64,000 nucleotides of DNA from an uncultured Bacteroidales bacterium (GTDB lineage Bacteria; Bacteroidota; Bacteroidia; Bacteroidales; UBA10428). Position 1 is the first letter of the stretch, and every line of letters starts with the position of its first letter. The notes under the pieces are model-generated. The model was not told where the DNA came from and searched no databases. It saw only the letters and a list, made by a program, of their open reading frames with translations. Positions 39,394 to 57,079 of the stretch are shown here, in pieces. The stretch is taken from contig CAZFQS010000001.1 of assembly GCA_964521285.1 (NCBI GenBank), forward strand, positions 62,438-126,437. Reading direction: 5' to 3'. The position numbers and the translations under genes are program-made.

Positions 39394-40272
39394 GTGAATA
39401 AATCAGGTAGTACAAAAAAAAGGCTTCCTCCCTGGATGAAAGTTCATATGCCACATGGTGTGAATTACTCCAGGGTAAAGAATCTGACAGTAAGTAAAAA
39501 ACTTAATACAATCTGTGTTAGTGGTAATTGTCCGAATAAAGCAGAATGCTGGAGTGCTGGTACTGCTACTTTTATGATTCTTGGAAATAAATGTACAAGA
39601 AACTGCAAATTCTGTCAGGTTAATACTATGAGGCCTGAACCGGTGGACATGGATGAACCAAATAGGCTTGCAGAGACTATCGGGCTACTTGGATTAAAAC
39701 ATTGTGTTATAACTTCAGTAGCAAGGGATGATTTACCTGACGGGGGATCCGGATTCTGGGCAGAGACAATCAGGACCATTAAGAGATTGAATCCGGATAT
39801 TTCAATGGAAGCACTTATTCCTGACTTCAAAAGAGGCACTAAGGCACTGGATCTGATAATTAAGGAAAAACCTGAAGTAATATCCCACAATCTGGAAACT
39901 GTTAGAAGACTTACTCCAAAAGTCAGATCCGTATCTACATATGACAGCAGCCTTGAGTTATTAGAATATACTGCATCTTCAGGAATTGTTGCCAAGTCAG
40001 GTATTATGGCAGGTCTGGGTGAAACAGAGGAAGAAGTTATGGAAACCATGGATGACCTTCTTACCGTTGGTGTTAAGGTATTTGTAATCGGACAGTACCT
40101 TCAGCCTTCAGAAAAGCATATTCAGGTAGAAGAATATATCAGACCTGAGATTTTTGAAAGGTTCAGGGAAACCGGACTGAAAAAAGGATTTGCATATGTT
40201 GAAAGTGGCCCCCAGGTAAGATCATCATACCATGCGGAAAGACACGTGAATATTAATACAGTACAAGAATAA
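39394..40272 (+). CDS. lipA: Lipoyl synthase
   Basis: CVSGNCPNKAEC, CTRNCKFC, HNLETV, KSGIMAGLGE, GQYLQPS, RSSYHA. Confidence 0.97.
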   Translation: MNKSGSTKKRLPPWMKVHMPHGVNYSRVKNLTVSKKLNTICVSGNCPNKAECWSAGTATFMILGNKCTRNCKFCQVNTMRPEPVDMDEPNRLAETIGLLGLKHCVITSVARDDLPDGGSGFWAETIRTIKRLNPDISMEALIPDFKRGTKALDLIIKEKPEVISHNLETVRRLTPKVRSVSTYDSSLELLEYTASSGIVAKSGIMAGLGETEEEVMETMDDLLTVGVKVFVIGQYLQPSEKHIQVEEYIRPEIFERFRETGLKKGFAYVESGPQVRSSYHAERHVNINTVQE

Positions 40273-40290
40273 AATTTATTAAAGGGAAAA

Positions 40291-40983
40291 ATGCCTGTAA
40301 AAGCTGTTTATGAAGATTTGGGAATTATTGATTACAAAAAGGCCTGGGATTACCAGGAGAAATTACATCAGGAAATTGTTAATATAAAATCCGGTAAAAT
40401 AAACAAAGAAATAACTAACAAGATTATCTTCTGCGAACATCCGCATGTTTATACTCTCGGCAGGAGTGGTAAGGAAAATAATCTCCTGATAAATGACAGT
40501 ATCCTGAATTCAATAAATGCAACTTATTACAGAACAAACCGGGGTGGAGATATAACTTATCACGGGCCGGGACAAATCGTAGGCTATCCTATATTTGATC
40601 TGGAACAGCTGAAGCTGGGCGCAAAAAGCTATATTTTCAAATTAGAGGAATCAATTATTAAAGTCCTTAAAGATTATAACATCTCCGCTAAGAGAATTAA
40701 AGGGGCAACTGGTGTCTGGATTGATTCAAAAAGTGAGGGAAATCTCAAAAAGATATGTGCAATTGGTATACGAATAAGCAAATTCATTACAATGCATGGA
40801 TTTGCACTAAATGTAACCACTGATCTTAAATATTTTAACTATATAAACCCCTGTGGTTATACTGATAAGGGAGTTACTTCCATAAAATATGAAATTGGCT
40901 ATTCACCCGCAATTGAAGAAGTTAAGAAGAAAATCTTAGACCATATTATAAATGAGTTCGAAATTCACTTACTTTATTTTTAA
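40291..40983 (+). CDS. lipB: Lipoyl(octanoyl) transferase
   Basis: CEHPHVYTLG, RGGDITYHGPGQIVGYP, KICAIG, TMHGFALNV, INPCG. Confidence 0.96.
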   Translation: MPVKAVYEDLGIIDYKKAWDYQEKLHQEIVNIKSGKINKEITNKIIFCEHPHVYTLGRSGKENNLLINDSILNSINATYYRTNRGGDITYHGPGQIVGYPIFDLEQLKLGAKSYIFKLEESIIKVLKDYNISAKRIKGATGVWIDSKSEGNLKKICAIGIRISKFITMHGFALNVTTDLKYFNYINPCGYTDKGVTSIKYEIGYSPAIEEVKKKILDHIINEFEIHLLYF

Positions 40984-43354: not shown

Positions 43355-44782
43355 TTATTTCATTAAATAGCGGTTAATCTCTTTTGCTGCCTCACGTCCC
43401 TGATAAATTGCCCTGACTACCAATGAAGCTCCGAGGGAAGCGTCGCCGGCAGCAAAAACTCCCGGGACATTTGTTGTATAGCTGTTGTTTATATTAATAT
43501 TACCTTTCCCGTCAAACACTATTCCAAGATGCTTTAAAAGCCTGTTATGCTCTGTATGTAAAAATCCCATCGCAAGGAAAACCATATCTACATCTAATGT
43601 AAAATCTGACCCGGGCGCTTCAACCATCTTCATTTTTTTTGTTGCTTCATTCATTTTCCAGTCGACTTTTGCACAATGCACCCTTTCAAGCTTGATGCCA
43701 CTTCCTGCAAATTTCTTCGTAAGAATACTCCATTCTCTTTTACATCCTTCTTCCTGTGATGTCGAGGTTCGCAAGATCGCTGGCCACCCGGGCCATTCCG
43801 GATTCCAGTCTTCTTTCCATATTCTTGGTTTCGGTAAAATCTCAAACTGGTATACTTCTTTTGCCCCCTGTCTGTTTGCCATTCCTACACAATCGGAACC
43901 TGTATCTCCTCCGCCAATAACAAGAACAATCTTATCCCTGGCATTGATAATTTCATGCTCCTTCAATTCACCGGCAATATATTTATTTGATTTCTTCAGG
44001 TAATCCATCGCAAAATAAATTCCTTCAAATCCCCTGCCCTGTATATCCAGATTTCTGGGCTCACCTGCACCGGCAGCCAGAAGAATTGCATCAAATGTTT
44101 TTCTTAAGTAGTGGGCAGACAGGTCTTCCCCGATAACAACATCGGTCTCAAATTCTATCCCTTCCTGCTCCATTTGTTCTATTCTTCTGTCAATTACCCA
44201 CTTTTCCAGCTTAAAATCCGGTATCCCGTATCTGAGAAGTCCTCCTGCTTTATAGTCTTTTTCAAATACGACCACTTTATGTCCGCTGCGTCTTAATTGC
44301 TGGGCAGCAGAGAGTCCGGCCGGCCCTGATCCTATAACAGCAACCTTTTTACCTGTCTCAGTAAAAGGATGTTTAGGTTCAACCCAGCCTTTTTTAAATG
44401 CATTCTCAATTATTGCAAGCTCAATTTGTTTGATTGTAACCGGACTGGTATTTATTGAAAGCGTGCATGCACTTTCGCAGGGGGCAGGGCACACTCTTCC
44501 CGTTATTTCCGGAAGATTATTTGTTTTTTCAAGCTGCTCGTAAGCCTCGCGCCAGTTATTCCTGTAAACCAAATCATTCCAGTCCGGTATCAGGTTGAAT
44601 ACAGGACAGCCGACCGAATGGCAAAAAGGAATACCACAATCCATACACCTCGCGCCCTGATTACGCAGTTCCTGTTCCGACCGAAGAATAATAAACTCAT
44701 TATAATTCTTAACCCGTTCTTCTTTCTTTTTATAAGAATAGTCTTTTCTCGTATAGTCAATAAATCCTGTTATTTTACCCAT
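43355..44782 (-). CDS. gltD: Glutamate synthase small subunit
   Basis: MGKITGF start (ATG 44782, after GAGGAGG), ARCMDCGIPFC, TGRVCPAPCE, GSGPAGL, GGGDTGSDC, FAAGD. Confidence 0.96.
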   Translation of the reverse strand: MGKITGFIDYTRKDYSYKKKEERVKNYNEFIILRSEQELRNQGARCMDCGIPFCHSVGCPVFNLIPDWNDLVYRNNWREAYEQLEKTNNLPEITGRVCPAPCESACTLSINTSPVTIKQIELAIIENAFKKGWVEPKHPFTETGKKVAVIGSGPAGLSAAQQLRRSGHKVVVFEKDYKAGGLLRYGIPDFKLEKWVIDRRIEQMEQEGIEFETDVVIGEDLSAHYLRKTFDAILLAAGAGEPRNLDIQGRGFEGIYFAMDYLKKSNKYIAGELKEHEIINARDKIVLVIGGGDTGSDCVGMANRQGAKEVYQFEILPKPRIWKEDWNPEWPGWPAILRTSTSQEEGCKREWSILTKKFAGSGIKLERVHCAKVDWKMNEATKKMKMVEAPGSDFTLDVDMVFLAMGFLHTEHNRLLKHLGIVFDGKGNININNSYTTNVPGVFAAGDASLGASLVVRAIYQGREAAKEINRYLMK

Positions 44783-44783
44783 T

Positions 44784-47700
44784 TTAATAAACCTCCTCTG
44801 TGAGTGAAACAACTTCCGTATCTTTTGATTCTGCTTTTTTAATTCTCTCAAGTGCTTTTTTATAGTCTATTGGCATGACTTTAACAAATTGTGGCTGTAT
44901 TTCAGTCCAGTCTCTTAATAAACCTTGAGCATATTCGCTGCCAGTATACTTGATATGATTACTAATCAAAGTATATAGTCTTTTATGGTCCGCCTTTCCC
45001 ACAACCGGCTCAACATCAATCATTTCAAGATTACATTTTGTATCAAAAAGCTGGTCCTGGTCGAGTACATACGCTATCCCTCCGCTCATGCCCGCACCGA
45101 AATTTATTCCTGTTTTCCCCAGTATAACTACAACGCCCCCTGTCATATATTCACATCCATGATCACCAATTCCCTCAACAACAGCCACAGCTCCGGAGTT
45201 TCTGACTGCAAATCTCTCTCCTGCCATTCCGTTAATATAAACTTCACCACGGGTAGCTCCAAAAAGGCTGACATTACCTATTATTATATTATTTTGAGGC
45301 CTGAACTGGGAGTTTTTAGGGGGATATACAACAATTTTGCCTCCTGACAGCCCCTTGCCAAGATAATCATTACATTCTCCTTCAAGTTCAAAAGTAATAC
45401 CAGCTGCAAGAAATGCCCCAAAACTTTGTCCTGCGGCTCCGGTAAACTTACAGTTTATGGTATTTTCAGGCATTCCTTTTGAACCATATCTTTTTGAGAC
45501 CTCGGCACTCAGGGTTGCTCCTACAGCACGGTTTGAATTAGCTATAGAGGCGAACATATTTATACATTGCATATTTTCCAGTGCATTTCCTGATTTTTCT
45601 ATAAGTTCAATGTCAATTGTATTTGAGAGATCATATTTGTTTGAAGAGATGAAATGGAGTTTGTTTTTCTTATTCGTTAATGGTACTGTTAGTATTTTTG
45701 AGAAATCCAGCTCTTTTGTTTTCCAGTTACCTGATAGGTTATCAGCTTCCATTATATCAGCCTGACCAATCATTTCATTGAAAGTGCGAAAACCGAGTTC
45801 AGCCATTATTTCCCGTACGTCGCGTGCAACAAATCTCATAAAATTCATAAGATATTCCGGCTTACCCGTAAATCTCTTCCTTAATTCAGGATTCTGAGTT
45901 GCAACTCCTACCGGACATGTGTTAAGGTGGCACTTTCTCATCATTATGCATCCCATTGTTATCAGGGCAGTCGTACCAAATCCGAACTCATCAGCCCCGA
46001 GAAGGGCTCCTATAACCACATCTCTTCCCGTATGTAATTTTCCGTCAACCTGAACACGTACACGATTTCTTAATTTATTAATTACCAGTGTTTGCTGGGT
46101 TTCTGCCAGTCCCATTTCCCAGGGTATACCTGCATGCTTTATGGACGATACGGGTGATGCCCCTGTTCCTCCATCATGTCCGCTAATCAATACCATATCG
46201 GCTCCTCCTTTTGCCACACCTGCAGCTATTGTCCCTACGCCCACCTCTGCTACAAGTTTAACGGATACCTTAACATCAGGATTTGCACTTTTTAAATCAA
46301 AAATAAGTTCTGATAAGTCCTCTATAGAATAAATATCATGATGTGGAGGCGGAGATATCAACATCACACCCGGTATAGAATGCCTCACTCTGGCAACATT
46401 AATGTCAACCTTATGTCCGGGTAGCTGCCCTCCTTCACCGGGCTTGGCCCCCTGGGCCATTTTAATCTGTAATTCCCTGGAATTAACAAGATAGTTGCTT
46501 GTTACCCCGAATCTTGCGGAAGCAATCTGCTTGATCATGCTTTTGGAAATATCACCGTTGGGCAGAGTATTATATCTCCCTTCATCTTCTCCCCCTTCAC
46601 CGGAATTACTTGCTGCACCGAGCCTGTTCATTGCAATGGCTATTGTTTCATGAGCTTCTTTACTTATTGATCCGAATGACATCGCAGAACTTACAAACCG
46701 TTTAATAATTGATTTCTCAGATTCAACTTCCTCAATTGGAACAGCCTCTCTTTTCTTAAATTTGAATAATCCTCGCAGTGTGCAAAGATTTTTTATTTTA
46801 TTATTAATCAGTTCAGCATACTCTTTATAAAGCGAATAATCATTTTCTCTTACTGCTTTTTGTAATAGTATTACAACCTCTGGTGATATAATGTGTTTTT
46901 CAGAAAAGCTCCTGTAATGAATATTTCCTCCTGACTCCAGTCCGTTTGACCGGTTATTTCTGTTGTACGCATTTCTGTGGCGATTTAGGCATTCTTCAAA
47001 AATATGAGTTAATCCAATGCCCCCTATTCTTGAGGGTGTACCTGGAAAATATTTGTTAATCATAGCCGAATTCAGTCCGATTGCCTCAAACAGCTGGGCC
47101 CCACGATAACTTCTTATTGTTGAAACTCCCATTTTCGACATAATCTTAAGCAGTCCTTTCTTAATAGCAGTAATGTAATTATCTATGGCAGTTTCCAGTT
47201 TGATTTCTTCAGAAATTTTCCCTTTGGCTTTGAGATCAGCAACAGTTTCAAAAGCTAAATATGGATTTACAGCACTTGCTCCAAATCCTATCAGAAGAGC
47301 AAAGTGCATTACTTCCCTTGCCTCTCCTGTTTCAACCACGAGACCGGCTAACTGCCTTTTCCCTTTACTTACAAGGTAATGATGTATAGCTGACGTAGCA
47401 AGAAGAGCAGGTACAGGTATGTTATTTTCATCCACTCCCCTGTCACTTAAAATTATCAGTGAATAGCCTTCATCAACCTTCCTTACTACTTCATCACATA
47501 TTTTTTTAATGGCTTTTTCAATATTCTTCCCGTTTTCTTTTACATTAAATATAATCGGGACAGTTGCTGTACGGAAATCCTCAATTGTAACATTACGCAG
47601 TTTATCAACATCTTCATTTGTCAGTATGGGATGCTGCAGTTTTAACTGATGACAGTGAAGCGGAGTTTCTTCAAGTAAATTCCTCTCCTTTCCTATATAA

Positions 47701-49316
47701 CTCATTAATGACATTACCAGGTTTTCACGATATGGATCAATAGGCGGATTTGTTACCTGGGCAAAAAGTTGTTTGAAATAGTTATAAAGAAGTTGCGGAT
47801 GTTCCGATAATACAGCAAGAGCGGTATCATTTCCCATGGAGCCCACCGGTTCTTGCGAATTTTCAGCCATGGGAGTAATTATCATGTTTATATCTTCGAG
47901 CGTATATCTGAATACTTTTTGCAGTAAATTCAGAAAACCGGGTTCCGTAATCACCGGGCCCGGCGGCTGAAAGAGCCCTCTTAACTCTATACGGTTTTGC
48001 TCCAGCCACCTTCTGTAAGGTTTCCTGCGGGAAATGGTCGATTTAACTTCATTATCGTATATGATTCTTTTTTTCTGTGTATCAACAAGTATCATTTTGC
48101 CCGGAGAAAGATGTCCTTTCTGCAGTACATCCTCGGGTTGAATTTCCAGTACACCGAACTCAGAGGCCATTATCAGTCTTCCGCTTTTTGTTATAGTATA
48201 CCTGGCTGGTCTGAGTCCGTTTCTGTCAAGCGCTGCCCCTACTTTAACGCCATCGGTAAAAATTAAAGCAGCCGGGCCATCCCATGGCTCCATTAAAGCT
48301 GAATGATACTCATAAAACGCACGTTTATCTTCACTTATATGATATTTGCTGCCAAAAGCCTCAGGAACCATCATCATCATTGAATGTTCAAGTGAAAAGC
48401 CACTTTGAAATAAAAGCTCATAAACATTGTCAAAAATTCCCGAGTCACTTAAATCAGTATTAATTACTGGTAAGAGTCTTCTGGTATCCTCACCGAAAAG
48501 ATCTGAGGATATTGTCTTTTCCCGGGCTTTCATTTTATTAATGTTCCCGCGCAAAGTATTAATCTCCCCGTTGTGGGCTATATATCTGAAGGGCTGCGCC
48601 AGTGGCCATGACGGGAAGGTATTTGTACTATAACGCTGATGAACAATAATAATGGCACTTTGAAAATCCTTATCTTTCAAATCAAGATAAAATTCTTCAA
48701 ACTGGGGTGCCACAAATAATCCTTTATATATAATAGTATTAGATGAAAATGAAGGTATATAGAACTCATCTATGGATATTCCTGATTCTGATACTTCATT
48801 CTCTATAATCCGGCGGACAACATATAATTTTCTTTCAAGTTCAATGCCTGATAAAGAGGGAAATTCCACAAATACCTGGCAGATGTATGGCATTGAATCC
48901 ATGGCTGTTCTGCCTAAACAACCCGGACATGTAGGAACATCTCTCCACCCTAATATTTTTCCTCCTTCTTTATAAATTATATCCTCAATTAAAGCAATCA
49001 CCTTTTTCCTGACACTATTATCATGCGGAAGAAACAGCATACCTGCTCCGTATTCACCGGCCGCAGGGAGGTTAAACTTTTGTTTAGCGGCTTCCTTTAG
49101 CAGAAAAGAATGGGGTAACTGTATCAGTATACCTGCCCCATCCCCGGTCTTAAGATCACCGCCTGTTGCCCCTCGATGTACCAGATTCTTTAATATTGTT
49201 ATTCCATCAGTTATTAGCTGATGGGAAGGTTGTCCGTTTATAGTAGCAATAAATCCTACCCCACAACCGTCATGTTCGTAAAAGGGATCATATAAACCTG
49301 CTTTCTCCATACTCAA
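44784..49316 (-). CDS. gltB: Glutamate synthase large subunit
   Basis: EHDGCGVGF (Ntn Cys), HQRYSTNTFPSW, HNGEINT, EPWDGPA, SNSGEGG, QGAKPGEGGQLPG, CIMMRKCHLNTC [3Fe-4S], GXGXG domain. Confidence 0.98.
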   Translation of the reverse strand: MSMEKAGLYDPFYEHDGCGVGFIATINGQPSHQLITDGITILKNLVHRGATGGDLKTGDGAGILIQLPHSFLLKEAAKQKFNLPAAGEYGAGMLFLPHDNSVRKKVIALIEDIIYKEGGKILGWRDVPTCPGCLGRTAMDSMPYICQVFVEFPSLSGIELERKLYVVRRIIENEVSESGISIDEFYIPSFSSNTIIYKGLFVAPQFEEFYLDLKDKDFQSAIIIVHQRYSTNTFPSWPLAQPFRYIAHNGEINTLRGNINKMKAREKTISSDLFGEDTRRLLPVINTDLSDSGIFDNVYELLFQSGFSLEHSMMMMVPEAFGSKYHISEDKRAFYEYHSALMEPWDGPAALIFTDGVKVGAALDRNGLRPARYTITKSGRLIMASEFGVLEIQPEDVLQKGHLSPGKMILVDTQKKRIIYDNEVKSTISRRKPYRRWLEQNRIELRGLFQPPGPVITEPGFLNLLQKVFRYTLEDINMIITPMAENSQEPVGSMGNDTALAVLSEHPQLLYNYFKQLFAQVTNPPIDPYRENLVMSLMSYIGKERNLLEETPLHCHQLKLQHPILTNEDVDKLRNVTIEDFRTATVPIIFNVKENGKNIEKAIKKICDEVVRKVDEGYSLIILSDRGVDENNIPVPALLATSAIHHYLVSKGKRQLAGLVVETGEAREVMHFALLIGFGASAVNPYLAFETVADLKAKGKISEEIKLETAIDNYITAIKKGLLKIMSKMGVSTIRSYRGAQLFEAIGLNSAMINKYFPGTPSRIGGIGLTHIFEECLNRHRNAYNRNNRSNGLESGGNIHYRSFSEKHIISPEVVILLQKAVRENDYSLYKEYAELINNKIKNLCTLRGLFKFKKREAVPIEEVESEKSIIKRFVSSAMSFGSISKEAHETIAIAMNRLGAASNSGEGGEDEGRYNTLPNGDISKSMIKQIASARFGVTSNYLVNSRELQIKMAQGAKPGEGGQLPGHKVDINVARVRHSIPGVMLISPPPHHDIYSIEDLSELIFDLKSANPDVKVSVKLVAEVGVGTIAAGVAKGGADMVLISGHDGGTGASPVSSIKHAGIPWEMGLAETQQTLVINKLRNRVRVQVDGKLHTGRDVVIGALLGADEFGFGTTALITMGCIMMRKCHLNTCPVGVATQNPELRKRFTGKPEYLMNFMRFVARDVREIMAELGFRTFNEMIGQADIMEADNLSGNWKTKELDFSKILTVPLTNKKNKLHFISSNKYDLSNTIDIELIEKSGNALENMQCINMFASIANSNRAVGATLSAEVSKRYGSKGMPENTINCKFTGAAGQSFGAFLAAGITFELEGECNDYLGKGLSGGKIVVYPPKNSQFRPQNNIIIGNVSLFGATRGEVYINGMAGERFAVRNSGAVAVVEGIGDHGCEYMTGGVVVILGKTGINFGAGMSGGIAYVLDQDQLFDTKCNLEMIDVEPVVGKADHKRLYTLISNHIKYTGSEYAQGLLRDWTEIQPQFVKVMPIDYKKALERIKKAESKDTEVVSLTEEVY

Positions 49317-49360: not shown

Positions 49361-51991
49361 TTAAGTTTTATTATTAAGATATAATACTCCTTCCTGCTCC
49401 ATAGAATTTAAAATTAAACGTAAACTAAATTCATTTTTCATATCTTCAGTATCTATAACCTTAACAGTATCAGCCCATAATTTTGCATTTGGCAACAATT
49501 CCAGTAATCGGTTATATGAGCTGTCAAAGAAATTATTATTCAAAACATAGCCTTCATTATCAGGATAAATAGCAAAATAAACCATATCCATCTCTACCAG
49601 ATCATTAAAGAAATGCGTTCCTAACGACACATCAGGAATTAATCCCTCATGCATATAGGCTATTTCACCCAAAACTGAAACAGTGTTTATTTCAGAAAAT
49701 GAAACCGGGACACCCAGTGATGGTGTGGTAGTACCCCACCTGCCCGGGCCAATTAAGGTTATATTTTTTTTATTTTCCTTTGTTTTGTCATTTAAATGTG
49801 TTAGTTCTCCTATCAGCCTGGCAACTGAGTATCTGTGACTCATACTGAGCTTTCCGTACACTGAAGGAATAACATAAATTATTCTGTCTATTTTTGTGGA
49901 TATGCTGTTTCCAACAATCGGACCTTTTGTTTTAATTATAATATTCCTGCTGTCTATATCTTCAGGTATTTTAAGGCTTCGTAAATCACCTGTAACCTGA
50001 AATGGCCTGCACTGGACGAGATTAATTTTATAGCTGTAATCATCCTGAAAGTTTACTGTAAATTCAATATCCACATGGTAGTTATAAGCTTTTCTCAGGG
50101 TTTCCAGCATATCCCTTATACTATTTACAAACTTTGTATCAGATAAAAGCCTGTTAAAAGTAAGTACATGAGAAAATATGTTCTGCATATTCCTTTCTCT
50201 TGCTATTTGTTCCAGCTCTTCATCACGGGATGTGAATAATTCCAGAGGCAGATCTGACATAACCTTTGCCAGATCCATGAAATAGTTGGATACCAATTGA
50301 TTAGAAGACAAATCAAGAATATCTACACGCTTCTGGGTATACTTTTTTACTTCATCGAAGTTTGCTTCGGGTCTCTTCAAAGGCGCATTAAGGGCCACAA
50401 TGCGAATATAATCATCATCATATCTGTTAACAGCCCTGGTCCCCAGTCCGAAAACCATGCGTATCATTCCGGCTCTGGGATCAATATCTTTATCCCATAC
50501 ATAAGGATTAAATGAAAAACCCACTCCTGCAATATGAGGAAAATAAAAATCATCATATTTAGCACCCGAAACCCTTTGAACCAGAATGGCCATTTGTTCG
50601 TCCTGATCTAAAAGATTAAGGTGAGAACGGTAAGCCAGAGCCTCTCTTTTCATAGTACTTGCATAAACAATGCGCACTGCAGACATAAACCGGTCAAGTC
50701 TTTCTTCCGGAGTACCCTGATTTGCGCAGAAAATGCTTTCATACTTTCCTGAAAACGAATTCCCGTAAGCATCTTCGAGAAGACTGCTCGAACGCACAAT
50801 AATGGGTGATTGCCCGAAATAATTAAGCATCTCGACAAACTGTTCTTTTATATCATCGGGGAAGGTGCCTGTTAGTATTACTTTACTTACTTCTTCGGCA
50901 TCATCAAATATTGAACCGCTGTTCTTCAACTTTCTCCTCATCCACCAGCAGCCATTCCTGATGAGATAAGTATAAAACACATCTGAACCAATAAAGAATG
51001 AGTCATGCTCTTCAAGAACCTCCTGCCATCTTTTATCCGCTTTCCTCAATATAGCCCTTGCTACAAGCATCCCAACCGATTTACCACCTATAAGTCCGGT
51101 TCCTATCATTCTTTTACCTATATCAATAAGATCCGAAAGCTCCAAATATTCTTTTGCCAGCTTAAGAATTCTTGGATCCCTGGTAACAGCCATTTTAAGA
51201 AGACGAGTAACCAGTTCATCTGTCTTTTTGTCATTCAGGCTACCTTTTTTTGTACTATATATTTCCTGGGCTTCAAAAAAGCTTCGTCTCCAGATATCAA
51301 GTCTGTGTACAGTATAATCAAGCCATGGCTGAGGTATAGATTTCAGTATCTCTGATATTACAGCACTTTTTGTCACAGGTTTAAATTCTTCTCCTTCCCG
51401 GCTATGCAGCATATACATGGTTGGCGAATAACGTTTATATACTTTCAATGGATGGATATAGAGTTTCTCTTTATTCCTGTATACATCGAAAACAATCTGG
51501 GCCGTGTTATGAATTGCATTTATTGTCATTGGCATATGAACATTCCTGAGAATACCGAAATATGCAACTGTTTTATAATCATAAAGATAGGGACATGTTA
51601 GCATAAAAAAGTTAGCCATCATACGATCACTATACCAATCTACCACAAGATCAGACAAACAGTCAAAAATATAGTATGTACCATAACCATATTCTTCTAT
51701 TATATCAAATATTGTTGAAATTAGTGCTTCGAATCCTTCATCAGGATTTAATGTATACATTTTAGCAACATTATCTTCAGGTAACAAAGCCTGGTGTTCT
51801 GCAAATCTGAAATAAATAATCGGTATTTTGTTTTTAACTGCTTCATTATAAAACGGATTAATGAAAGGTATGTACTCTTCTATAGAATCAACCTGCCATA
51901 TAATATTATCGCCCGGAACAACGCCCTGAATGACTTTATCCAAACCGTTCATCCCGGTACTCATATAGGTATATACTTTGTCAATACTCAT
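49361..51991 (-). CDS. Uncharacterised PEP/pyruvate-binding (PPDK_N ATP-grasp) domain protein with a degenerate KaiC/RecA-like N-terminal domain
   Basis: N-terminal STGMNGLDKVIQG without Walker A. ATP-grasp motifs IGGKS, VRSSSLLED, FSGKYES, MAILVQ, GLGTRAV, DIEF, VQCRP. No GGxTSHAA phospho-His domain or pyruvate-binding barrel. C-terminal GPGRWG and SLGTHFF. Confidence 0.75.
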   Translation of the reverse strand: MSIDKVYTYMSTGMNGLDKVIQGVVPGDNIIWQVDSIEEYIPFINPFYNEAVKNKIPIIYFRFAEHQALLPEDNVAKMYTLNPDEGFEALISTIFDIIEEYGYGTYYIFDCLSDLVVDWYSDRMMANFFMLTCPYLYDYKTVAYFGILRNVHMPMTINAIHNTAQIVFDVYRNKEKLYIHPLKVYKRYSPTMYMLHSREGEEFKPVTKSAVISEILKSIPQPWLDYTVHRLDIWRRSFFEAQEIYSTKKGSLNDKKTDELVTRLLKMAVTRDPRILKLAKEYLELSDLIDIGKRMIGTGLIGGKSVGMLVARAILRKADKRWQEVLEEHDSFFIGSDVFYTYLIRNGCWWMRRKLKNSGSIFDDAEEVSKVILTGTFPDDIKEQFVEMLNYFGQSPIIVRSSSLLEDAYGNSFSGKYESIFCANQGTPEERLDRFMSAVRIVYASTMKREALAYRSHLNLLDQDEQMAILVQRVSGAKYDDFYFPHIAGVGFSFNPYVWDKDIDPRAGMIRMVFGLGTRAVNRYDDDYIRIVALNAPLKRPEANFDEVKKYTQKRVDILDLSSNQLVSNYFMDLAKVMSDLPLELFTSRDEELEQIARERNMQNIFSHVLTFNRLLSDTKFVNSIRDMLETLRKAYNYHVDIEFTVNFQDDYSYKINLVQCRPFQVTGDLRSLKIPEDIDSRNIIIKTKGPIVGNSISTKIDRIIYVIPSVYGKLSMSHRYSVARLIGELTHLNDKTKENKKNITLIGPGRWGTTTPSLGVPVSFSEINTVSVLGEIAYMHEGLIPDVSLGTHFFNDLVEMDMVYFAIYPDNEGYVLNNNFFDSSYNRLLELLPNAKLWADTVKVIDTEDMKNEFSLRLILNSMEQEGVLYLNNKT

Positions 51992-52110
51992 CCTTAAATA
52001 CCATTAAATAAGCCAGTAAACCCAGACAATTACTATTTAATTAAAAAAATTCGCAAGCAATAAAAATTATTTAAGCATGCCTTAAAAATCTCAGAATTGC
52101 ATTTATGAAG

Positions 52111-52126
52111 GCAATTATTATACCAA
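52111..52126 (-). promoter_or_regulatory. Sigma54 (-24/-12) promoter for the PPDK_N-gltB-gltD operon
   Basis: The minus strand reads TTGGTATAATAATTGC: exact GG-N10-GC spacing with TGGYAY and TTGC. It lies about 120 nt upstream of the ATG at 51991, divergent from a sigma54 activator gene. Confidence 0.75.
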
Positions 52127-52334: not shown

Positions 52335-54407
52335 ATGGAACCTAAAAATAGCAACAGGAGGAAAAATACATATAAATTACAAATCCTTGAAGACATCCTT
52401 GATATAATTAATTCAGCCATTTCTCCCAGCGAGCTTTTAAATTATCTTATTGATAAATGTATTGAAATAACAGGAGCACTTACAGGAAGTATAAGGATAA
52501 TAAATCCTGAAACAAACATTCTGGAGATCAAAGTATTCAGGGGACTTAATCCAAGTAAAATTTTGAAAATTAAGTTAAAACTGGGAGAAGGTGTTACCGG
52601 ACGTGTCGCAGAAACAGGATTACCTCTTCTGGTCAATAATGTAGATGATATTGAGTATTATATCAGGGTGAGAAAAGACTTAAAATCAGAACTTGCAGTC
52701 CCGCTTAAAGCTGAAAATACAACATTTGGTGTAATAAGTGTCGATAGTAATAAACTGAATGCCTTTACTAAAGAGCATCAAAATTTGCTGGAAACAATAT
52801 CAACTTTTGCTGTACAGATTTTACAGAAAGCAAACTTAATAGAAAATCTGAAAGACAGGATCGAAAGGCAAAATCTGCTTTTAAAGGTTGCTGATATACT
52901 GGCTCAGGAATTCGAACTCGAAAAGGTTTTTGAAAAAATAATGGATTATATCTCAAAAGTAATGGACATAAAAAGAGGGTCTATTATTCTTCTTGACAAA
53001 CATGAAAAACTTAAAGCCTTTAAAGGATACAACTTAAGTGACGATGCAATAGAAAGGGGAGTCTATCAGGTGGGTGAAGGAGTGGTTGGCAAGGTTTTTA
53101 AATATGGCAATGGTATAAAAATAAAAGATATAACAAAAAGTATTGATTTTCTGAATAGAATGAAAATCAGGCGGGGAACAGGAGAAAAGAATTCATTTTT
53201 TGCAGTACCGATCAAATACGAAGATAAAACTGTAGGCGTATTAAATATTGAAAAGGAATATATCTCAGATGAAGATTTTAAAAGTACCTTCGAGACAATA
53301 ACTTTAATTGCAACTCTGGTTTCCAACAAGGTTTATAATTATGTCATCTCAAAAAGAGAAAAGGAATTACTGCTAAAGAAAAATATAGAATTGCAGAAAA
53401 AACTAAAGCAAAAAGAAATTAATCCTGATTTTGTAGGAAAAAATAAAAGAATATTAAAATTACTTGATACAGTTAATGTGATTGCAGGTACTGACGCCAC
53501 AGTACTAATAACCGGACCAACAGGAGCAGGTAAAGAAATAATAGCAAAATTAATTCACAATAAAAGCAGAAGATTTGAAAATCAATTTGTTAGTATTAAT
53601 TGTGCTGCTATACCGGAAAATCTTCTTGAATCAGAATTATTCGGATATAAAAAGGGAGCATTTACAGACGCAGTTAATGACAAAAAGGGGAAATTTCTTC
53701 TGGCAAATAACGGAACAATCTTTTTTGATGAAATCGGAGACCTTGATTTGAACTTGCAGGCAAAAATCCTTAGAGTCATTCAGGAGAAAACAATAGAACC
53801 ATTAGGCAGTGAAAAAAGCATAAAAGTTGATGTCAGAATAATTGCAGCTACCAATAAGAACTTAAAAACACTTACAATGGAAAACAAGTTCAGGGAGGAC
53901 CTTTTTTACAGATTAAATGTTATAAATATCGATATTCCTCCTCTTGCTGAAAGGAAAGATGATATTCCTCTTCTTCTTGAACACTTTATTAATATTTATA
54001 ATAAGAAATATAACAGGGATATTGAAGGAATTACATCCGGGTGTTACCACGCACTTATGAATTATCGCTGGCCAGGCAATATAAGAGAGCTTGAAAACAT
54101 CATTGAAAGAGCTGTTATACTTTCAAACGGCAGGTCCATCGATATTGGTGATCTGCCGGAAGATCTTACAAATTATGTTGTAAGTGATGACAAGGATTTA
54201 CTGAAACAACTAATCGAAGAAGAAATTAAAATTCAGGATAAAGGGGAAATATATAAAACAGTAATAAATAAAATTGAGAAATTCTTAATAGAATTTGCGC
54301 TGATAAAATCTAATAATAACCGGACTGAAGCAGCTGATTATTTAGGAATTCACAGAAATACGCTACATTTGAAATTAAAAAACTCACATAATATAACCAT
54401 TGATTAG
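52335..54407 (+). CDS. Sigma54-dependent enhancer-binding protein, GAF-GAF-AAA+-HTH (NifA-like architecture, NtrC/Fis-like HTH)
   Basis: Two GAF repeats (LGEGVTGRVAETG..SELAVPL; VGEGVVGKV..FFAVPI), Walker A GPTGAGKE, ESELFG, GAFTDA, FFDEIGD, FREDLFYRLNV, WPGNIREL, HTH LGIHRNTL. No receiver domain. Confidence 0.93.
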   Translation: MEPKNSNRRKNTYKLQILEDILDIINSAISPSELLNYLIDKCIEITGALTGSIRIINPETNILEIKVFRGLNPSKILKIKLKLGEGVTGRVAETGLPLLVNNVDDIEYYIRVRKDLKSELAVPLKAENTTFGVISVDSNKLNAFTKEHQNLLETISTFAVQILQKANLIENLKDRIERQNLLLKVADILAQEFELEKVFEKIMDYISKVMDIKRGSIILLDKHEKLKAFKGYNLSDDAIERGVYQVGEGVVGKVFKYGNGIKIKDITKSIDFLNRMKIRRGTGEKNSFFAVPIKYEDKTVGVLNIEKEYISDEDFKSTFETITLIATLVSNKVYNYVISKREKELLLKKNIELQKKLKQKEINPDFVGKNKRILKLLDTVNVIAGTDATVLITGPTGAGKEIIAKLIHNKSRRFENQFVSINCAAIPENLLESELFGYKKGAFTDAVNDKKGKFLLANNGTIFFDEIGDLDLNLQAKILRVIQEKTIEPLGSEKSIKVDVRIIAATNKNLKTLTMENKFREDLFYRLNVINIDIPPLAERKDDIPLLLEHFINIYNKKYNRDIEGITSGCYHALMNYRWPGNIRELENIIERAVILSNGRSIDIGDLPEDLTNYVVSDDKDLLKQLIEEEIKIQDKGEIYKTVINKIEKFLIEFALIKSNNNRTEAADYLGIHRNTLHLKLKNSHNITID

Positions 54408-54439: not shown

Positions 54440-57079
54440 ATGAAAAAAATTCTGCTTTTAACAATTAGTTGCTGCTTTATAATCTATAATATCTTTTCTC
54501 AACAGGATAATGAGATTATAACTCCCGAAGAATTTTTTGGATTCAGACCCGGTGAAGAAGGTATGTTATTTAAATACGAATCTTTAATAAATTATCTGGA
54601 TAAACTTGCCAAAGTATCCCCAAGAGTAAAAATGACAGAAATAGGAGAATCTCCTTTAGGAAAAAAGATGTATATAGTCTTTTTGTCATCAGAAGAGAAT
54701 ATAAAAAATCTTGAAAATCTTAAAATATTAAACAGGGAACTGGCTCTTAATTATAATATCGAGCCAGAAGAAAAAGAAAAATATGTTCGGGAAGGAAAAG
54801 TGTTTGTACTGGTTACCCTTTCAATGCATTCCAATGAAGTCGGGCCTACTCAATCAGCCCCTTTAATCGCTCATCAGCTGGCTGTAACAGATGATCCTGA
54901 ACTTCTTGGTTATCTTGACCAGGTAGTATTGATGGTAGTACCCTGTCATAATCCTGATGGTATGGATATGGTTGTGGACCATTATAAAAAATATAAGGGC
55001 ACAATATACGAAGGAACCAGATTGCCGGGTTTATATCATAAATATGTAGGTCATGATAATAACAGAGATTTTGTTAGCCTAACGCAGGAAGATACAAAAG
55101 TAATTGCCAATATTTACAACAAATCATGGTTCCCTCAGGTATTATTAGAAAAACACCAGATGCACATCGATGGAACAAGATATTTTGTGCCCCCGGTTAA
55201 TGATCCTATTTCAGAAAATATTAATGAACAATTATGGAACTGGACATGGATTTTTGGTTCTGCCATGGCGAAAGATATGACCGAAAAAGGCCTTGAAGGG
55301 GTATCTCAACACTACCTGTTTGATGATTACTGGCCGGGATCAACAGAAACAGCCTTATGGAAGAACGTAATAGGGCTTCTTACTGAATGTGCGAGTGCAA
55401 AATATGCAACTTCGGTATATATCGAGCCAAATGAATTAAAAGTATTCAGTAAGGGTCTTGCAGAGCATAAAAAAAGTATAAATATGCCTTTACCATGGGA
55501 AGGCGGATGGTGGAAACTTAGCGATATAGTTGAATATGAAATGGTTTCTTTTTATTCACTGATAAAAACTTCTGCAATTCATAAAAAGGAAATTTTAAAG
55601 TTAAGAAATGATATCTGTCAGATTGAAGTTAAAAAGGGAAAAACCGAACCACCTTATTATTATTTGTTTCCTTCTGACCAGCATGATCCGGGAGAGATAG
55701 TTAAGCTTATTAATCTGCTGGACGAGCACGGTATTGATGTATATAAAGTATCAGATTCATTTACCCTTGATAACAAACAGATAAATGAGAATGATTACAT
55801 AGTGCCTTTAGCCCAGCCGTTCAGGTCATTTTTAATTGAAGTATTAGAAAAACAAACCTTTCCGGTCAGACATTATACTCCTGGTGGTGAAATTATGAAA
55901 CCATATGACATAACAAGCTGGTCATTGCCATTACACATGGGTGTCAAGGTTATTAAAATAAATACTTATTCCGAAAACTTAGATAAATCTCTTGTTAAGC
56001 AGGAACTTCCCTTGAAAAGTAATATTTCATTCCCTGAAAAATATAGTGCTGTAATATTCCCGTCACAATTTAATGATAGTTACCGGGCTGTCTTCGAAGC
56101 AATAAACCAGCAGATTAAGGTAGAAAGAGTACATGACAGTTTTGAAATTAACGGTAATAAAGTATGGGCCGGCAGTTTTGTAATATATATTGATAAAAAC
56201 AATCAGCAAAAGCTCGAAAAAATTATTAATGGAATAAATATATCTCCTTTATTTTTAACAGAGTCAATAAACATTAAATCCGAAAAAATAAATATACCGA
56301 GGATCGGACTGGTTGAATCTTACTTTCACGATATGGACGCAGGCTGGACAAGATATTTATTCGACAGTTATTCTATCAATTTTAAAGTATTAAGGCCAGC
56401 TGATATTGCTAACAAGGACTTAACAAAAGAATTTGATGTAATAGTCTTTCCTGATATGGATAATAATGTGTTAACAGAAGGTAAATATAAGTCCGATGAT
56501 GACAGCTATATTATTCCTGTGTATCCCCCTGAATATGCAAAAGGTATGGGTAAGGAAGGGATGGAAAAGGTACTTGATTTTATTAATAAGGGCGGTTCCG
56601 TAATCTCATGGGGAAGGTCAGCGAAATTATTTATGGGGCCTCTGGCAATTACAAAACAAAATGATGAAAAAGAAGAATTTCAGCTGCCTGTTAATGATAT
56701 TTCTGAAGAGCTTAAAAAACAAAAATTTTATTGTCCGGGTTCATTACTAAAGACAGAGCTAATAGAAAACCATCCATTAACCTGGGGAATGCCCAAATCT
56801 GCAGGTGTTTTTTCACGAGGGACACCAGTACTAACTACTTCAATTCCCTGGTTTGATATGGACAGGAGGGTAATTGCCACCTTACCTGAAAAAAACATAC
56901 TTTTAAGCGGGTATATTGAAAATGAAGATTTAATCAGCAATAAATCAATGATGGTATGGATAAAGAAAGGTAAAGGACAGCTGGTATTGTACGGATTTTA
57001 TCCCCAGTTCAGAGCTTCAACAGCAGGTACATATAAACTGTTGTTTAATGCGCTGCTTTTGCCGGAGATTAAACAATAA
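54440..57079 (+). CDS. Exported M14 zinc carboxypeptidase-family protein with a C-terminal class-I GATase/DJ-1-like domain
   Basis: Signal peptide, HSNE (HxxE), HNPDG, GHDNNRD, EKHQM. C-terminal MDAGWTRYLFD..DVIVFP..GKGQLVLYGF.PQFRA. Confidence 0.8.
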   Translation: MKKILLLTISCCFIIYNIFSQQDNEIITPEEFFGFRPGEEGMLFKYESLINYLDKLAKVSPRVKMTEIGESPLGKKMYIVFLSSEENIKNLENLKILNRELALNYNIEPEEKEKYVREGKVFVLVTLSMHSNEVGPTQSAPLIAHQLAVTDDPELLGYLDQVVLMVVPCHNPDGMDMVVDHYKKYKGTIYEGTRLPGLYHKYVGHDNNRDFVSLTQEDTKVIANIYNKSWFPQVLLEKHQMHIDGTRYFVPPVNDPISENINEQLWNWTWIFGSAMAKDMTEKGLEGVSQHYLFDDYWPGSTETALWKNVIGLLTECASAKYATSVYIEPNELKVFSKGLAEHKKSINMPLPWEGGWWKLSDIVEYEMVSFYSLIKTSAIHKKEILKLRNDICQIEVKKGKTEPPYYYLFPSDQHDPGEIVKLINLLDEHGIDVYKVSDSFTLDNKQINENDYIVPLAQPFRSFLIEVLEKQTFPVRHYTPGGEIMKPYDITSWSLPLHMGVKVIKINTYSENLDKSLVKQELPLKSNISFPEKYSAVIFPSQFNDSYRAVFEAINQQIKVERVHDSFEINGNKVWAGSFVIYIDKNNQQKLEKIINGINISPLFLTESINIKSEKINIPRIGLVESYFHDMDAGWTRYLFDSYSINFKVLRPADIANKDLTKEFDVIVFPDMDNNVLTEGKYKSDDDSYIIPVYPPEYAKGMGKEGMEKVLDFINKGGSVISWGRSAKLFMGPLAITKQNDEKEEFQLPVNDISEELKKQKFYCPGSLLKTELIENHPLTWGMPKSAGVFSRGTPVLTTSIPWFDMDRRVIATLPEKNILLSGYIENEDLISNKSMMVWIKKGKGQLVLYGFYPQFRASTAGTYKLLFNALLLPEIKQ

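What the first reader, a model, noticed from the sequence alone, without database searches (positions are those of the whole stretch)
49361..51991. Orphan half-PEP-synthase: pseudo-KaiC domain + ATP-grasp + possible novel phospho-His module
Seen: the N-terminus begins like KaiC/RecA ATPases (STGMNGLDKVIQG, later YIFDCLSDL), but PGDNIIWQ stands where Walker A should be. The centre keeps the ATP-grasp residues of PEP synthase/PPDK (GGKS, VRSSS..ED, FSGKYES, ILVQ, GLG, DIEF, QCRP). The canonical GGxTSHAA swivel domain and the pyruvate-binding barrel are missing. A different C-terminal domain carries GPGRWG and SLGTHFF. Established: dikinases need the phospho-His swivel domain and an acceptor domain, so this cannot be a standard PpsA or PPDK. 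Inference: it is a new ATP-dependent kinase/ligase or regulator, with the GTHFF His as a possible phospho-carrier and the dead KaiC fold as a sensor. Its position before gltB suggests it acts on GltBD, 2-oxoglutarate or glutamate pools.
Basis: partly seen in the sequence, partly recalled or inferred. Interest (0 to 1): 0.75.

Follow-up and report, generated by a model that had tools for sequence, protein, structure and literature searches.

The report
Nitrogen-linked ATP-grasp enzyme, novel His-domain
A large, highly conserved but uncharacterised enzyme keeps only the ATP-using half of PEP synthase, joined to a dead KaiC-like domain and a histidine-bearing domain with no known structural relative; it sits inside the ammonium-assimilation gene clusters of many anaerobic bacteria and archaea, which points to an unrecognised ATP-dependent step or control in glutamate synthesis.

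Summary
The 876-aa ORF (49361-51991, minus strand) and every quoted motif are real. It has three domains. Residues ~8-230 form a RecA/KaiC-fold domain whose P-loop is deleted. Residues 300-679 form a PPDK_N ATP-grasp with all nucleotide/Mg residues intact. Residues ~684-876 form a confidently modelled domain with no PDB neighbour and no profile similarity to the canonical swivel domain. It is not an orphan: more than 8000 homologues exist, at about 60% identity across phyla and in archaea. The GTHFF histidine (His793) is present in 224/232 C-domains, including 30%-identical variants; His781 is subfamily-specific. The nitrogen link is strong and broader than gltB: 28/39 pseudo-KaiC-type loci lie within 7 kb (8 kb in the metagenome loci) of GOGAT, GS, GDH, Amt/PII or AsnB. 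Relatives with a different N-terminus are repeatedly preceded by gdh. In the window the gene heads a gene-gltB-gltD operon behind a conserved sigma54 -24/-12 element, next to a GAF-GAF sigma54 activator. No canonical swivel partner occurs in 1.58 Mb around 113 loci plus the window. Most likely it is a His-dependent ATP phosphotransferase serving the 2-oxoglutarate/glutamate node. The acceptor and the regulatory-versus-metabolic question remain untested. I found no publication on the family.

The parts
49361..51991 (-). CDS of the 876-aa three-domain protein ('X')
51302..51970 (-). N-terminal pseudo-KaiC/RecA-fold domain (res ~8-230). The P-loop is replaced by VDSIEEY (51872-51892); the Walker-B-like strand YIFDCLSDL is at 51647-51673
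   Evidence: Foldseek KaiC/RecA hits; hhalign to RadA; AF2 secondary structure
49955..51094 (-). PPDK_N-type ATP-grasp domain (res 300-679) with GGK304, R400-SSS, E406-D407, D641-x-E643, Q660-x-R662
   Evidence: Pfam E=1.4e-50; Foldseek to rifampin phosphotransferase and HpeI; residues conserved across all variants examined
49364..49942 (-). C-terminal alpha/beta domain (res 684-876) with no detectable known relative. It carries the GPGRWG loop (49733-49750), MHEG (49643-49654) and SLGTHFFND (49601-49627)
   Evidence: AF2 domain model pLDDT 83.9, pTM 0.85; no PDB neighbour; no PDB sequence hit; hhalign negative against swivel domains
49613..49615 (-). Codon of His793, family-wide invariant, at the N-terminus of a helix after a low-confidence loop (781-790)
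52110..52125 (-). Sigma54-type -24/-12 element TGGTATAATAATTGCC, 118-134 nt upstream of the ATG
   Evidence: conserved in L001-L004 and L022; background 0.012 per kb
52335..54407 (+). Divergent GAF-GAF-Sigma54_activat-HTH_8 enhancer-binding protein
   Evidence: Pfam; conserved in L001-L003 at 84-85%
44784..49316 (-). gltB (glutamate synthase large subunit), 44 nt downstream, with no terminator in between
43355..44782 (-). gltD (small subunit). The likely true start is ATG 44782, 1 nt after the gltB stop codon

Best explanation
X is a catalytically active member of the PPDK/PEP-synthase ATP-grasp superfamily that has lost the canonical swivel and pyruvate/PEP domains. I propose the following mechanism. 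ATP binds in the intact ATP-grasp. A phosphoryl group is passed to the invariant His793, which sits at a helix N-terminus behind a flexible loop in a C-terminal alpha/beta domain of a new type (with the GPGRWG loop, R751, E776, S789 and D797). From there it goes to an acceptor at the 2-oxoglutarate-to-glutamate node. The P-loop-less KaiC-like N-domain is an exchangeable targeting or sensing module. In this organism X is the first gene of a sigma54-dependent X-gltB-gltD operon, probably switched on by the divergent GAF-GAF activator. My committed guess for the acceptor is a protein of the assimilation machinery (GOGAT/GDH/GS/PII), which would make X a VadK-like regulatory autokinase rather than a PEP synthase. 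Shown: architecture, residue conservation, gene linkage, promoter element. Inferred: ATP turnover, phospho-His793, the acceptor.
For: The ATP-grasp is intact: Pfam PPDK_N E=1.4e-50. GGK304, R400, S402/S403, E406, D407, E643, Q660 and R662 are strictly conserved, and position 641 is D or E, even in ~30%-identical variants and in both modules of tandem forms. K304 lies in the GGK motif that in RPH and PPDK holds the essential Lys22 (PMC4844700); this is a motif-level equivalence, and no residue alignment to RPH was made here. Best structural neighbours are the dikinases RPH (E=7e-12) and HpeI. The C-domain is more conserved than the rest. G[TS]H[FYL][FY] occurs in 224/232 domains and GPGR[WF] in 206/232. 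G750, R751, E776, S789, [ST]792 and H793 are strictly conserved; position 797 is D/E except N in three degenerate first modules. The His sits at a helix N-cap after a low-pLDDT loop. Linkage: 28/39 pseudo-KaiC-type loci have GOGAT, GS, GS-III, GDH, Amt, PII or AsnB within 7 kb (8 kb in the metagenome loci), in at least 14 lineages including Methanoregula, Hodarchaeota, Elusimicrobiota, Spirochaetales, Fibrobacteres, Omnitrophota and Clostridia. GS/GOGAT/Amt/PII linkage is 24/39 against 0/72 for the variant subfamily (Fisher p=2e-14). The variant subfamily is instead preceded by gdh in 10 of 22 clusters at >=60% identity. A sigma54 element is conserved in 3 independent lineages and there is no terminator before gltB. 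The X stop overlaps the gltB start in L030. Precedent for a truncated dikinase acting as a His-autophosphorylating metabolic regulator: VadK (bioRxiv 10.1101/2025.10.30.685616).
Against: There is no biochemical data and no transcript data. The C-domain is not detectably homologous to any known phospho-His domain, so the phospho-carrier role rests on conservation and position only. The distance between His793 and the ATP site could not be measured. Nearly all characterised PPDK_N enzymes act on small molecules or glucans, not proteins, which favours the metabolic rival. About 60% identity across phyla over 870 aa is more typical of a core enzyme than of a regulator. About 28% of pseudo-KaiC-type loci, and the tandem forms, show no nitrogen context.
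Confidence: 0.35

Rival explanations
1. Small-molecule dikinase. The same ATP to His793 chemistry applies, but the acceptor is a metabolite of the node (2-oxoglutarate, glutamate, glutamine or ammonia). X would then be a pathway enzyme working with GOGAT/GDH, not a regulator.
For: All well-characterised relatives except VadK phosphorylate small molecules or glucans (RPH; HpeHI; weak NCBIfam hits to PEP synthase, PigC, RedH and RPH). Conservation is similar to that of GltB/GltD themselves (X 60%, GltB 69%, GltD 65% between the window and L004). There is operonic, sometimes overlapping, coupling to gltB and to gdh (gaps of 16-104 nt). GDH and GOGAT share only substrates, not fold.
Against: No known metabolite or pathway needs such a product. 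No recognisable acceptor-binding domain is present. Core-only 600-aa forms exist. Linkage also extends to Amt/PII/GS, which fits regulon-wide control.
Confidence: 0.3
2. ATP-grasp kinase or ligase without a phospho-His intermediate. His793 would be a general base or ligand in a substrate site of the C-domain, and transfer from ATP would be direct.
For: The C-domain has no similarity to swivel domains. It carries a GxGxxG-like loop plus an invariant Arg, Glu and Asp that could form a binding site.
Against: All characterised PPDK_N-type enzymes named here use a His carrier. The [ST]-His at a helix N-cap behind a mobile loop resembles known phospho-carrier sites; this is my inference.
Confidence: 0.15
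3. The link to nitrogen metabolism is regulon hitch-hiking. X would act on something else that matters under N limitation, such as glycogen or carbon storage as in glucan-water dikinases.
For: The Geobacter tandem form lies between an alpha-amylase-family gene and pgi. L008 has an alpha-amylase neighbour. 11 of 39 pseudo-KaiC loci are unlinked.
Against: Other tandem loci have no carbohydrate context. Linkage is specifically to the 2-OG/Glu/NH4+ genes in at least 14 lineages and to gdh in the variant branch. No carbohydrate-binding module is detected.
Confidence: 0.1
4. Ordinary PEP synthase/PPDK (the database label 'pyruvate, water dikinase'), or a split dikinase whose swivel and acceptor half is encoded elsewhere.
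For: Source annotations say so. Split dikinases exist (HpeHI).
Against: PF00391 and PF02896 are absent. The score is 47 bits against a 739.75 cutoff. No canonical swivel ORF occurs in 1.58 Mb around 113 loci plus the window, while positive controls reach E=1e-35 to 1e-48. No PEP-utilizer neighbour appears in the Pfam-labelled contigs.
Confidence: 0.04

Closest known systems
Rifampin phosphotransferase (RPH) and the two-component HpeHI hydroxyphenylethanone dikinase
   Same: They are the best structural matches of the ATP-grasp (5hv3 E=6.8e-12; 9goj E=6.5e-10). In RPH the catalytic His lies in a C-terminal domain, as proposed here, and the substrate-binding module is variable (PMC4844700; PMC12167813).
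   Different: Their His sits in a canonical swivel domain and they have a RIF-binding-type acceptor domain. X has neither. X has a pseudo-KaiC N-domain and a nitrogen-gene context.
PEP synthase (PpsA) / pyruvate phosphate dikinase
   Same: PPDK_N ATP-grasp with the same GGK, RSS..ED, D-x-E and Q-x-R-P motifs.
   Different: X lacks the GGxTSH mobile domain and the PEP/pyruvate TIM barrel, and scores far below the family cutoffs.
VadK (Rv1127c), the truncated PPDK of Mycobacterium tuberculosis
   Same: A dikinase that lost the acceptor barrel. It autophosphorylates on His and binds or regulates enzymes of a metabolic pathway (bioRxiv 10.1101/2025.10.30.685616). It is the conceptual model for the regulatory reading.
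   Different: VadK keeps the canonical His domain, is 490 aa, has no KaiC-like domain and acts on the methylcitrate cycle. No activity data exist for X.
KaiC / RecA / RadA P-loop ATPases
   Same: The fold of residues ~8-230, the STG..LD..G leader motif and the Walker-B-type hhhhD strand.
   Different: The Walker A loop is deleted and replaced by VDSIEEY, so the domain cannot bind nucleotide in the classical way.

Membership tests
PEP synthase / PPDK (EC 2.7.9.2 / 2.7.9.1) | PPDK_N ATP-grasp nucleotide-binding domain | tested here: met
   PF01326 E=1.4e-50, res 300-679
PEP synthase / PPDK (EC 2.7.9.2 / 2.7.9.1) | PEP-utilizers mobile (swivel) domain with GGxTSH | tested here: not met
   No PF00391 hit. 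Foldseek of the C-domain has no PEP-utilizer hit. hhalign gives 0.2% and 0.55%
PEP synthase / PPDK (EC 2.7.9.2 / 2.7.9.1) | PEP/pyruvate-binding TIM barrel (PEP-utilizers_C) | tested here: not met
   No PF02896 hit. TIGR01418 scores 47 bits against a cutoff of 739.75
RPH / HpeHI-type small-molecule dikinases | ATP-grasp structurally like RPH | tested here: met
   5hv3 E=6.8e-12 over 401 columns
RPH / HpeHI-type small-molecule dikinases | Swivel His domain plus RIF-BD-like acceptor domain, in cis or on an adjacent partner | tested here: not met
   The NF041857 hit covers only the ATP-grasp. No swivel ORF occurs in 1.58 Mb of flanks
KaiC/RecA-like ATPases | RecA-like fold | tested here: met
   KaiC 7s65_B E=3.7e-8; KaiC CI 4tl6_C with target-normalised TM 0.63
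KaiC/RecA-like ATPases | Walker A GxxxxGK[ST] | tested here: not met
   VDS-IEEY aligns to RadA GNPGAGKST. There is a two-residue beta1-helix connection in the model
VadK-like regulatory truncated dikinase | ATP- and Mg-dependent autophosphorylation on a conserved His | not testable with these tools
   Only conservation of His793 could be shown
Sigma54-dependent nitrogen-assimilation operon | -24 GG / -12 GC element at correct spacing upstream, with an enhancer-binding protein nearby | tested here: met
   TGGYAY-N5-TTGC is present in the window, L001-4 and L022. The GAF-GAF-AAA+ EBP lies divergently upstream. Dependence on RpoN was not tested

The most novel reading that the evidence does not exclude
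X together with GOGAT or GDH forms an ATP-driven (AMP-forming) route of ammonium assimilation. X would activate the 2-oxo group of 2-oxoglutarate by phosphorylation, analogous to pyruvate to PEP and to PigC-type carbonyl activation. Free NH3 could then form 2-iminoglutarate at low ammonium, and the imine would be reduced by the GltB synthase site/GltD or by GDH. This would be a GS-independent high-affinity pathway in anaerobes and archaea.
Probability: 0.06. Interest if true: 0.95.

Novelty: new variant of a known kind. Interest (0 to 1): 0.72.

Why it matters
GS-GOGAT, GDH, Amt and PII are regarded as the complete core of prokaryotic ammonium assimilation. Here a ~870-aa protein, conserved about as well as GltB/GltD, sits inside these clusters in Fibrobacterota, Elusimicrobiota, Spirochaetota, Omnitrophota, Clostridia, methanogens and Asgard archaea. 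It is annotated only as 'PEP/pyruvate-binding domain protein' or, wrongly, as 'pyruvate, water dikinase'. If it is a regulator, it would be a covalent or phospho-His control layer for nitrogen assimilation. If it is a metabolic enzyme, it would add an ATP-dependent step at the 2-oxoglutarate/glutamate node. Either way it corrects a widespread misannotation, defines a new His-bearing domain, and gives directly testable predictions (H793A, ATP to AMP, growth at low ammonium).

Tried and rejected
1. My own hypothesis was that the C-domain is a divergent PEP-utilizer swivel domain, because the order of elements (beta-loop-[ST]H-helix-beta) is similar and the family profile runs in register into the first hairpin of the PpsA swivel domain. 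I rejected it. Foldseek found no PEP-utilizer hit (best E=0.035, TM 0.29). hhalign gave 0.2% with thin profiles and 0.55% with 217 C-domains against 14 real swivel domains fetched from plasmids and E. coli.
2. A nucleotidyltransferase-like reading of GPGRWG has no Foldseek or Pfam support. Only a distant variant (P0232) carries an extra, separate NTP_transf_2 domain.
3. Sequence searches of the N-domain and the C-domain against the PDB found nothing.
4. A split-dikinase partner was not found.
5. The tandem 1460-1510-aa forms were checked as a clue to a carbohydrate function. One locus lies next to an alpha-amylase-family gene and pgi, but two others have unrelated contexts.
6. The second sigma54-pattern match, at 23693-23708, lies inside an ORF on the other strand and is probably chance.
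7. Rfam found no RNA families in the window. No RNA-seq runs hold the locus.
8. Seven literature searches for the family or its nitrogen link found nothing specific.
9. dnaN upstream of the variant subfamily (23 loci) is judged clade synteny, because it covers only 6 clusters at a median 55% identity.
Full report
OBSERVATION. The ORF is exactly as described: ATG at 51991, stop at 49361, minus strand, 876 aa. gltB (1510 aa) follows 44 nt downstream on the same strand, and then gltD. Pfam sees a single domain, PPDK_N (PF01326; residues 300-679; E=1.4e-50). It sees neither the PEP-utilizers mobile domain nor the PEP-utilizers_C barrel. NCBIfam models for PEP synthase, PPDK, PigC/RedH and rifampin phosphotransferase match only the ATP-grasp part, at 14-47 bits against cutoffs of 450-1350. 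The only PDB sequence hits are marginal matches to the ATP-grasp parts of 9goj and 8a8e.

NOT AN ORPHAN. The search for homologous proteins returned the full 8000 scored candidates. The best 120 are nearly all full-length ~870-aa proteins, apart from a few ~1,460-1,510-aa tandem forms. Identity is 92-80% in close relatives and a plateau of 57-64% in Fibrobacterota, Chitinivibrionales, Elusimicrobiota, Spirochaetales, Omnitrophota and others. The exhaustive HMMER search of 50%-identity representatives gave 3597 clusters at E<1e-3 and 795 at E<1e-30. A scan of one genome per species found members in Methanoregula, Methanomassiliicoccales, Hodarchaeota, Clostridia, Lentisphaerae and Bacteroidales MAGs; the last are the closest, at 81-83%. 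A 27-sequence alignment has 68% mean column identity. The sources label the family 'PEP/pyruvate-binding domain-containing protein', 'pyruvate, water dikinase' or 'hypothetical'.

ANATOMY. The full-length AF2 model is confident (pLDDT 82.2, pTM 0.83). Foldseek against the PDB splits it in two. About 400 columns match rifampin phosphotransferase (5hv3, E=6.8e-12) and about 370 match the ATP-grasp component HpeI (9goj, E=6.5e-10). About 230 N-terminal columns match KaiC (7s65_B, E=3.7e-8) and RecA. The N-domain has no sequence-level PDB hit. A profile alignment to E. coli RadA is weak (E=0.003) but in register with the classic motifs. STGMNGLDKVIQ-GVVPGDNIIWQ aligns with STGFKEFDRVLGGGVVPGSAILIG. 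VDS-IEEY occupies the place of the Walker A loop GNPGAGKST. YYIFD aligns with the Walker B strand LMVID. The N-domain is very conserved (invariant H66, E88, D110, S113, W119, S121-D122-R123, H152, T163, Q165, D169, K183, R187, H196), so it is functional and not a relic.

The ATP-grasp keeps GGK(302-304), R400-S-S-S, E406-D407, D641-x-E643 and Q660-x-R662. These are conserved in every variant I examined, down to ~30% identity, and in both modules of the tandem forms; position 641 is D or E. The GGK lysine is the motif-level equivalent of Lys22, which is essential in RPH and implicated in PPDK (PMC4844700). I infer an active nucleotide site.

THE C-TERMINAL DOMAIN. Modelled alone (res 668-876, 25-sequence alignment) it is confident (pLDDT 83.9, pTM 0.85). 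It is an alpha/beta domain. The strand ITLIGP leads into the GPGRWG loop. After a low-confidence loop (781-790 in the full model), [ST]792-His793 caps helix 792-800. Foldseek finds no significant PDB neighbour (best E=0.035, TM about 0.29; no PEP-utilizer, EI, PPDK or RPH hit among the 50 listed). A profile search of PDB sequences also finds nothing. I suspected a divergent swivel domain and tested that with real sequences: E. coli PpsA and PtsI, plus 12 diverse swivel domains fetched from plasmids. hhalign probability was 0.2% and 0.55% with deeper profiles (Neff 5.1 against 4.2). I therefore treat the domain as having no detectable known relative.

G[TS]H[FYL][FY] is present in 224/232 C-domains and GPGR[WF] in 206/232. 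MHxG (His781) is present only in about half, the closer subfamily. Strictly conserved in all modules examined are G750, R751, E776, S789, [ST]792 and H793. Position 797 is D/E, with N in three degenerate first modules. Position 749 is P, with F in those same modules.

ARCHITECTURAL VARIANTS. The core (res ~260-873) recurs in several forms: without any N-domain (~600 aa); with a different ~150-aa or ~300-aa N-terminus; with an added C-terminal nucleotidyltransferase domain (P0232); and as tandem [core]-[pseudo-KaiC + core] proteins of 1460-1510 aa. The N-domain therefore behaves as an exchangeable module on a self-contained ATP-grasp plus His-domain engine.

GENOMIC CONTEXT. I called ORFs in 25 genome loci and clustered them. 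I then scored neighbours against reference GS, GOGAT, GltD, GDH, Amt and PII sequences and Pfam-checked the ambiguous ones.
- gltB-gltD follows X directly in the window, in three Bacteroidales MAGs, and in Chitinispirillaceae and Fibrobacteres.
- In seven Methanoregula loci the order is glnA-X-amt-glnK, with the split archaeal GOGAT divergent upstream and gdhA downstream.
- Hodarchaeota has the split GOGAT downstream.
- Omnitrophota and Lentisphaerae have GDH-family genes alongside.
- Desulfoscipio has a Glu_synthase-domain gene, GS, GDH and Amt nearby.
- A Eubacteriales MAG has amt-glnK, glnN (GS-III), asnB, X and a class-II GATase in a row.
- Contigs with precomputed Pfam labels add Spirochaetales (X-gltB-gltD), Elusimicrobiota (amt-glnK-pyrG-X-gltB-gltD-glnN, with the X stop overlapping the gltB start), a GAF/ANTAR-gdh-X contig, and Omnitrophota (gltB-gltD-X...gdh).
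- Eight more pseudo-KaiC-type loci from metagenomes give 5 further linked cases.
In all, 28 of 39 pseudo-KaiC-type loci are linked (within 7 kb in the genome loci and Pfam-labelled contigs, within the 8-kb flanks of the metagenome loci), in at least 14 lineages. Unlinked loci are mostly Clostridia.

As an internal control, 72 loci of the ~775-aa variant subfamily contain no GS, GOGAT, Amt or PII gene (0/72 against 24/39; Fisher p=2e-14). Yet 14 of them carry a ~420-aa ELFV dehydrogenase nearby, in most cases directly upstream on the same strand with gaps of 16-104 nt. These 14 fall in 10 of the 22 clusters at >=60% identity. The neighbours I scanned are Pfam-confirmed and best match glutamate dehydrogenase models at E=1e-142 to 1e-186, although below the strict equivalog cutoff. 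So the link to the 2-oxoglutarate-to-glutamate enzymes (GOGAT or GDH) is a property of the whole core superfamily. The wider link to GS, Amt and PII goes with the pseudo-KaiC form. The tandem forms have no consistent context.

REGULATION. A sigma54-type element, TGGTATAATAATTGCC, lies at 52110-52125, 118-134 nt upstream of the ATG. The same TGGYAY-N5-TTGC element is found 96-127 nt upstream of X in L001-L003 and, as the exact consensus TGGCAC-N5-TTGC, in Chitinispirillaceae (L004) and Fibrobacteres (L022), whose intergenic regions are otherwise unrelated. The strict pattern occurs at 0.012 per kb in all fetched DNA. Presence in three independent lineages is therefore a phylogenetic footprint. 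It is absent from the Spirochaetales, Elusimicrobiota and Omnitrophota loci. The divergent gene (52335-54407) is a GAF-GAF-Sigma54_activat-HTH_8 activator and is conserved in L001-L003. No terminator separates X from gltB. The probable gltD start (ATG 44782) lies 1 nt after the gltB stop codon. I conclude that X-gltB-gltD is a sigma54-dependent operon. Nitrogen-limitation control is an inference.

MECHANISM. Shown: an intact dikinase-type ATP site; a family-wide invariant [ST]-His at a helix N-terminus behind a mobile loop, in a domain fused to that ATP-grasp; no canonical swivel domain in cis, nor in 1.58 Mb of flanking DNA around 113 loci plus the window (positive controls E=1e-35 to 1e-48); and tight, recurrent operonic coupling to GOGAT and GDH. 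Inferred: ATP-dependent phosphorylation of His793, as in RPH (His825), HpeH and VadK (His422), followed by transfer to an acceptor.

I cannot decide between a protein acceptor and a metabolite acceptor.
- For the regulatory reading (VadK-like): the variety of linked genes, the exchangeable N-domain and the signalling-type pseudo-ATPase domain.
- For the metabolic reading (2-OG, Glu, Gln or NH3): the family precedent, the enzyme-like level of conservation, and the fact that GDH and GOGAT share substrates but not folds.
I commit to the regulatory version at about 0.35, with the metabolic version at about 0.30. The general statements are much more secure: about 0.9 that X is an active ATP-grasp enzyme that is not a PEP synthase, and about 0.85 that it is functionally tied to ammonium assimilation.

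COMPARISON AND NOVELTY. X belongs to the PPDK_N ATP-grasp superfamily but fails the defining tests for PEP synthase/PPDK and for RPH/HpeHI-type dikinases (no swivel domain, no known acceptor domain). It has the KaiC/RecA fold but not the P-loop. It is conceptually closest to VadK. I found no paper on the family, although the searchable library is incomplete. I rate it a new variant of a known kind: the ATP-grasp engine is known; the His-bearing domain, the architecture and the biological context are new.

SOURCE. The exact locus is held by many salt-marsh and marsh sediment metagenomes. No RNA run could be listed.

Noticed in passing
window 52110-52125 (-): A sigma54-type -24/-12 element lies upstream of the gene. 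It is conserved in Bacteroidales-MAG, Chitinispirillaceae and Fibrobacteres orthologous loci and absent from the Spirochaetales, Elusimicrobiota and Omnitrophota loci.
   Followed up: yes
window 52335-54407 (+): A divergent GAF-GAF-AAA+(sigma54)-HTH_8 activator (NifA-like layout) is conserved at 84-85% in L001-L003. It is the likely regulator of the X-gltBD operon. The ligand of its GAF domains is unknown.
   Followed up: partly
window 43355-44851 and 49310-49316 (-): The mechanical ORF starts are probably too long. gltD most likely starts at ATG 44782 (MGKITGF), 1 nt after the gltB stop codon, which matches the 475-aa orthologues. gltB may start at ATG 49310 rather than TTG 49316.
   Followed up: partly
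L006 9956-12595 (+) and 12693-15302 (-): This Omnitrophota contig carries two convergent paralogues of the family side by side, the second preceded by a GDH gene.
   Followed up: no
P0018, P0020, P0022, P0041, P0050, P0064 (loci L028, L046, L047): Tandem 1460-1510-aa forms (Geobacter sp. OR-1 and metagenomes) consist of a core-only module followed by a pseudo-KaiC + core module. Both modules keep the ATP-grasp residues R751, E776, S789 and H793. This hints that cores work in pairs. They have no conserved gene context.
   Followed up: partly
P0232 (1064 aa), residues 943-1002: A distant variant has an extra C-terminal NTP_transf_2/Pol-beta-type nucleotidyltransferase domain.
   Followed up: no
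L074-L125 (23 loci): In one clade of the ~775-aa variant subfamily the gene lies directly downstream of dnaN, sometimes as dnaN-gdh-X. This is probably clade synteny rather than function.
   Followed up: partly
window 54440-57079 (+): An 879-aa protein has a hydrophobic N-terminus that looks like a signal peptide (my reading of the sequence) and only a partial Peptidase_M14 match (res 50-215). The remaining ~650 aa are unassigned.
   Followed up: no
window 23693-23708 (-): The second match to the sigma54 pattern (TGGTACTTTTTTTGCT) lies inside the ORF 22530-24209 on the opposite strand and is likely chance.
   Followed up: partly
window 39394-40983 (+): The lipoate synthesis pair lipA (radical SAM/LIAS_N) and lipB/lplA-type ligase lies next to recJ, lysS and parE/parC-like genes. 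This is ordinary housekeeping context. Nearest genomes are 'uncultured Bacteroidales' MAGs, and the source habitat is salt-marsh sediment.
   Followed up: no
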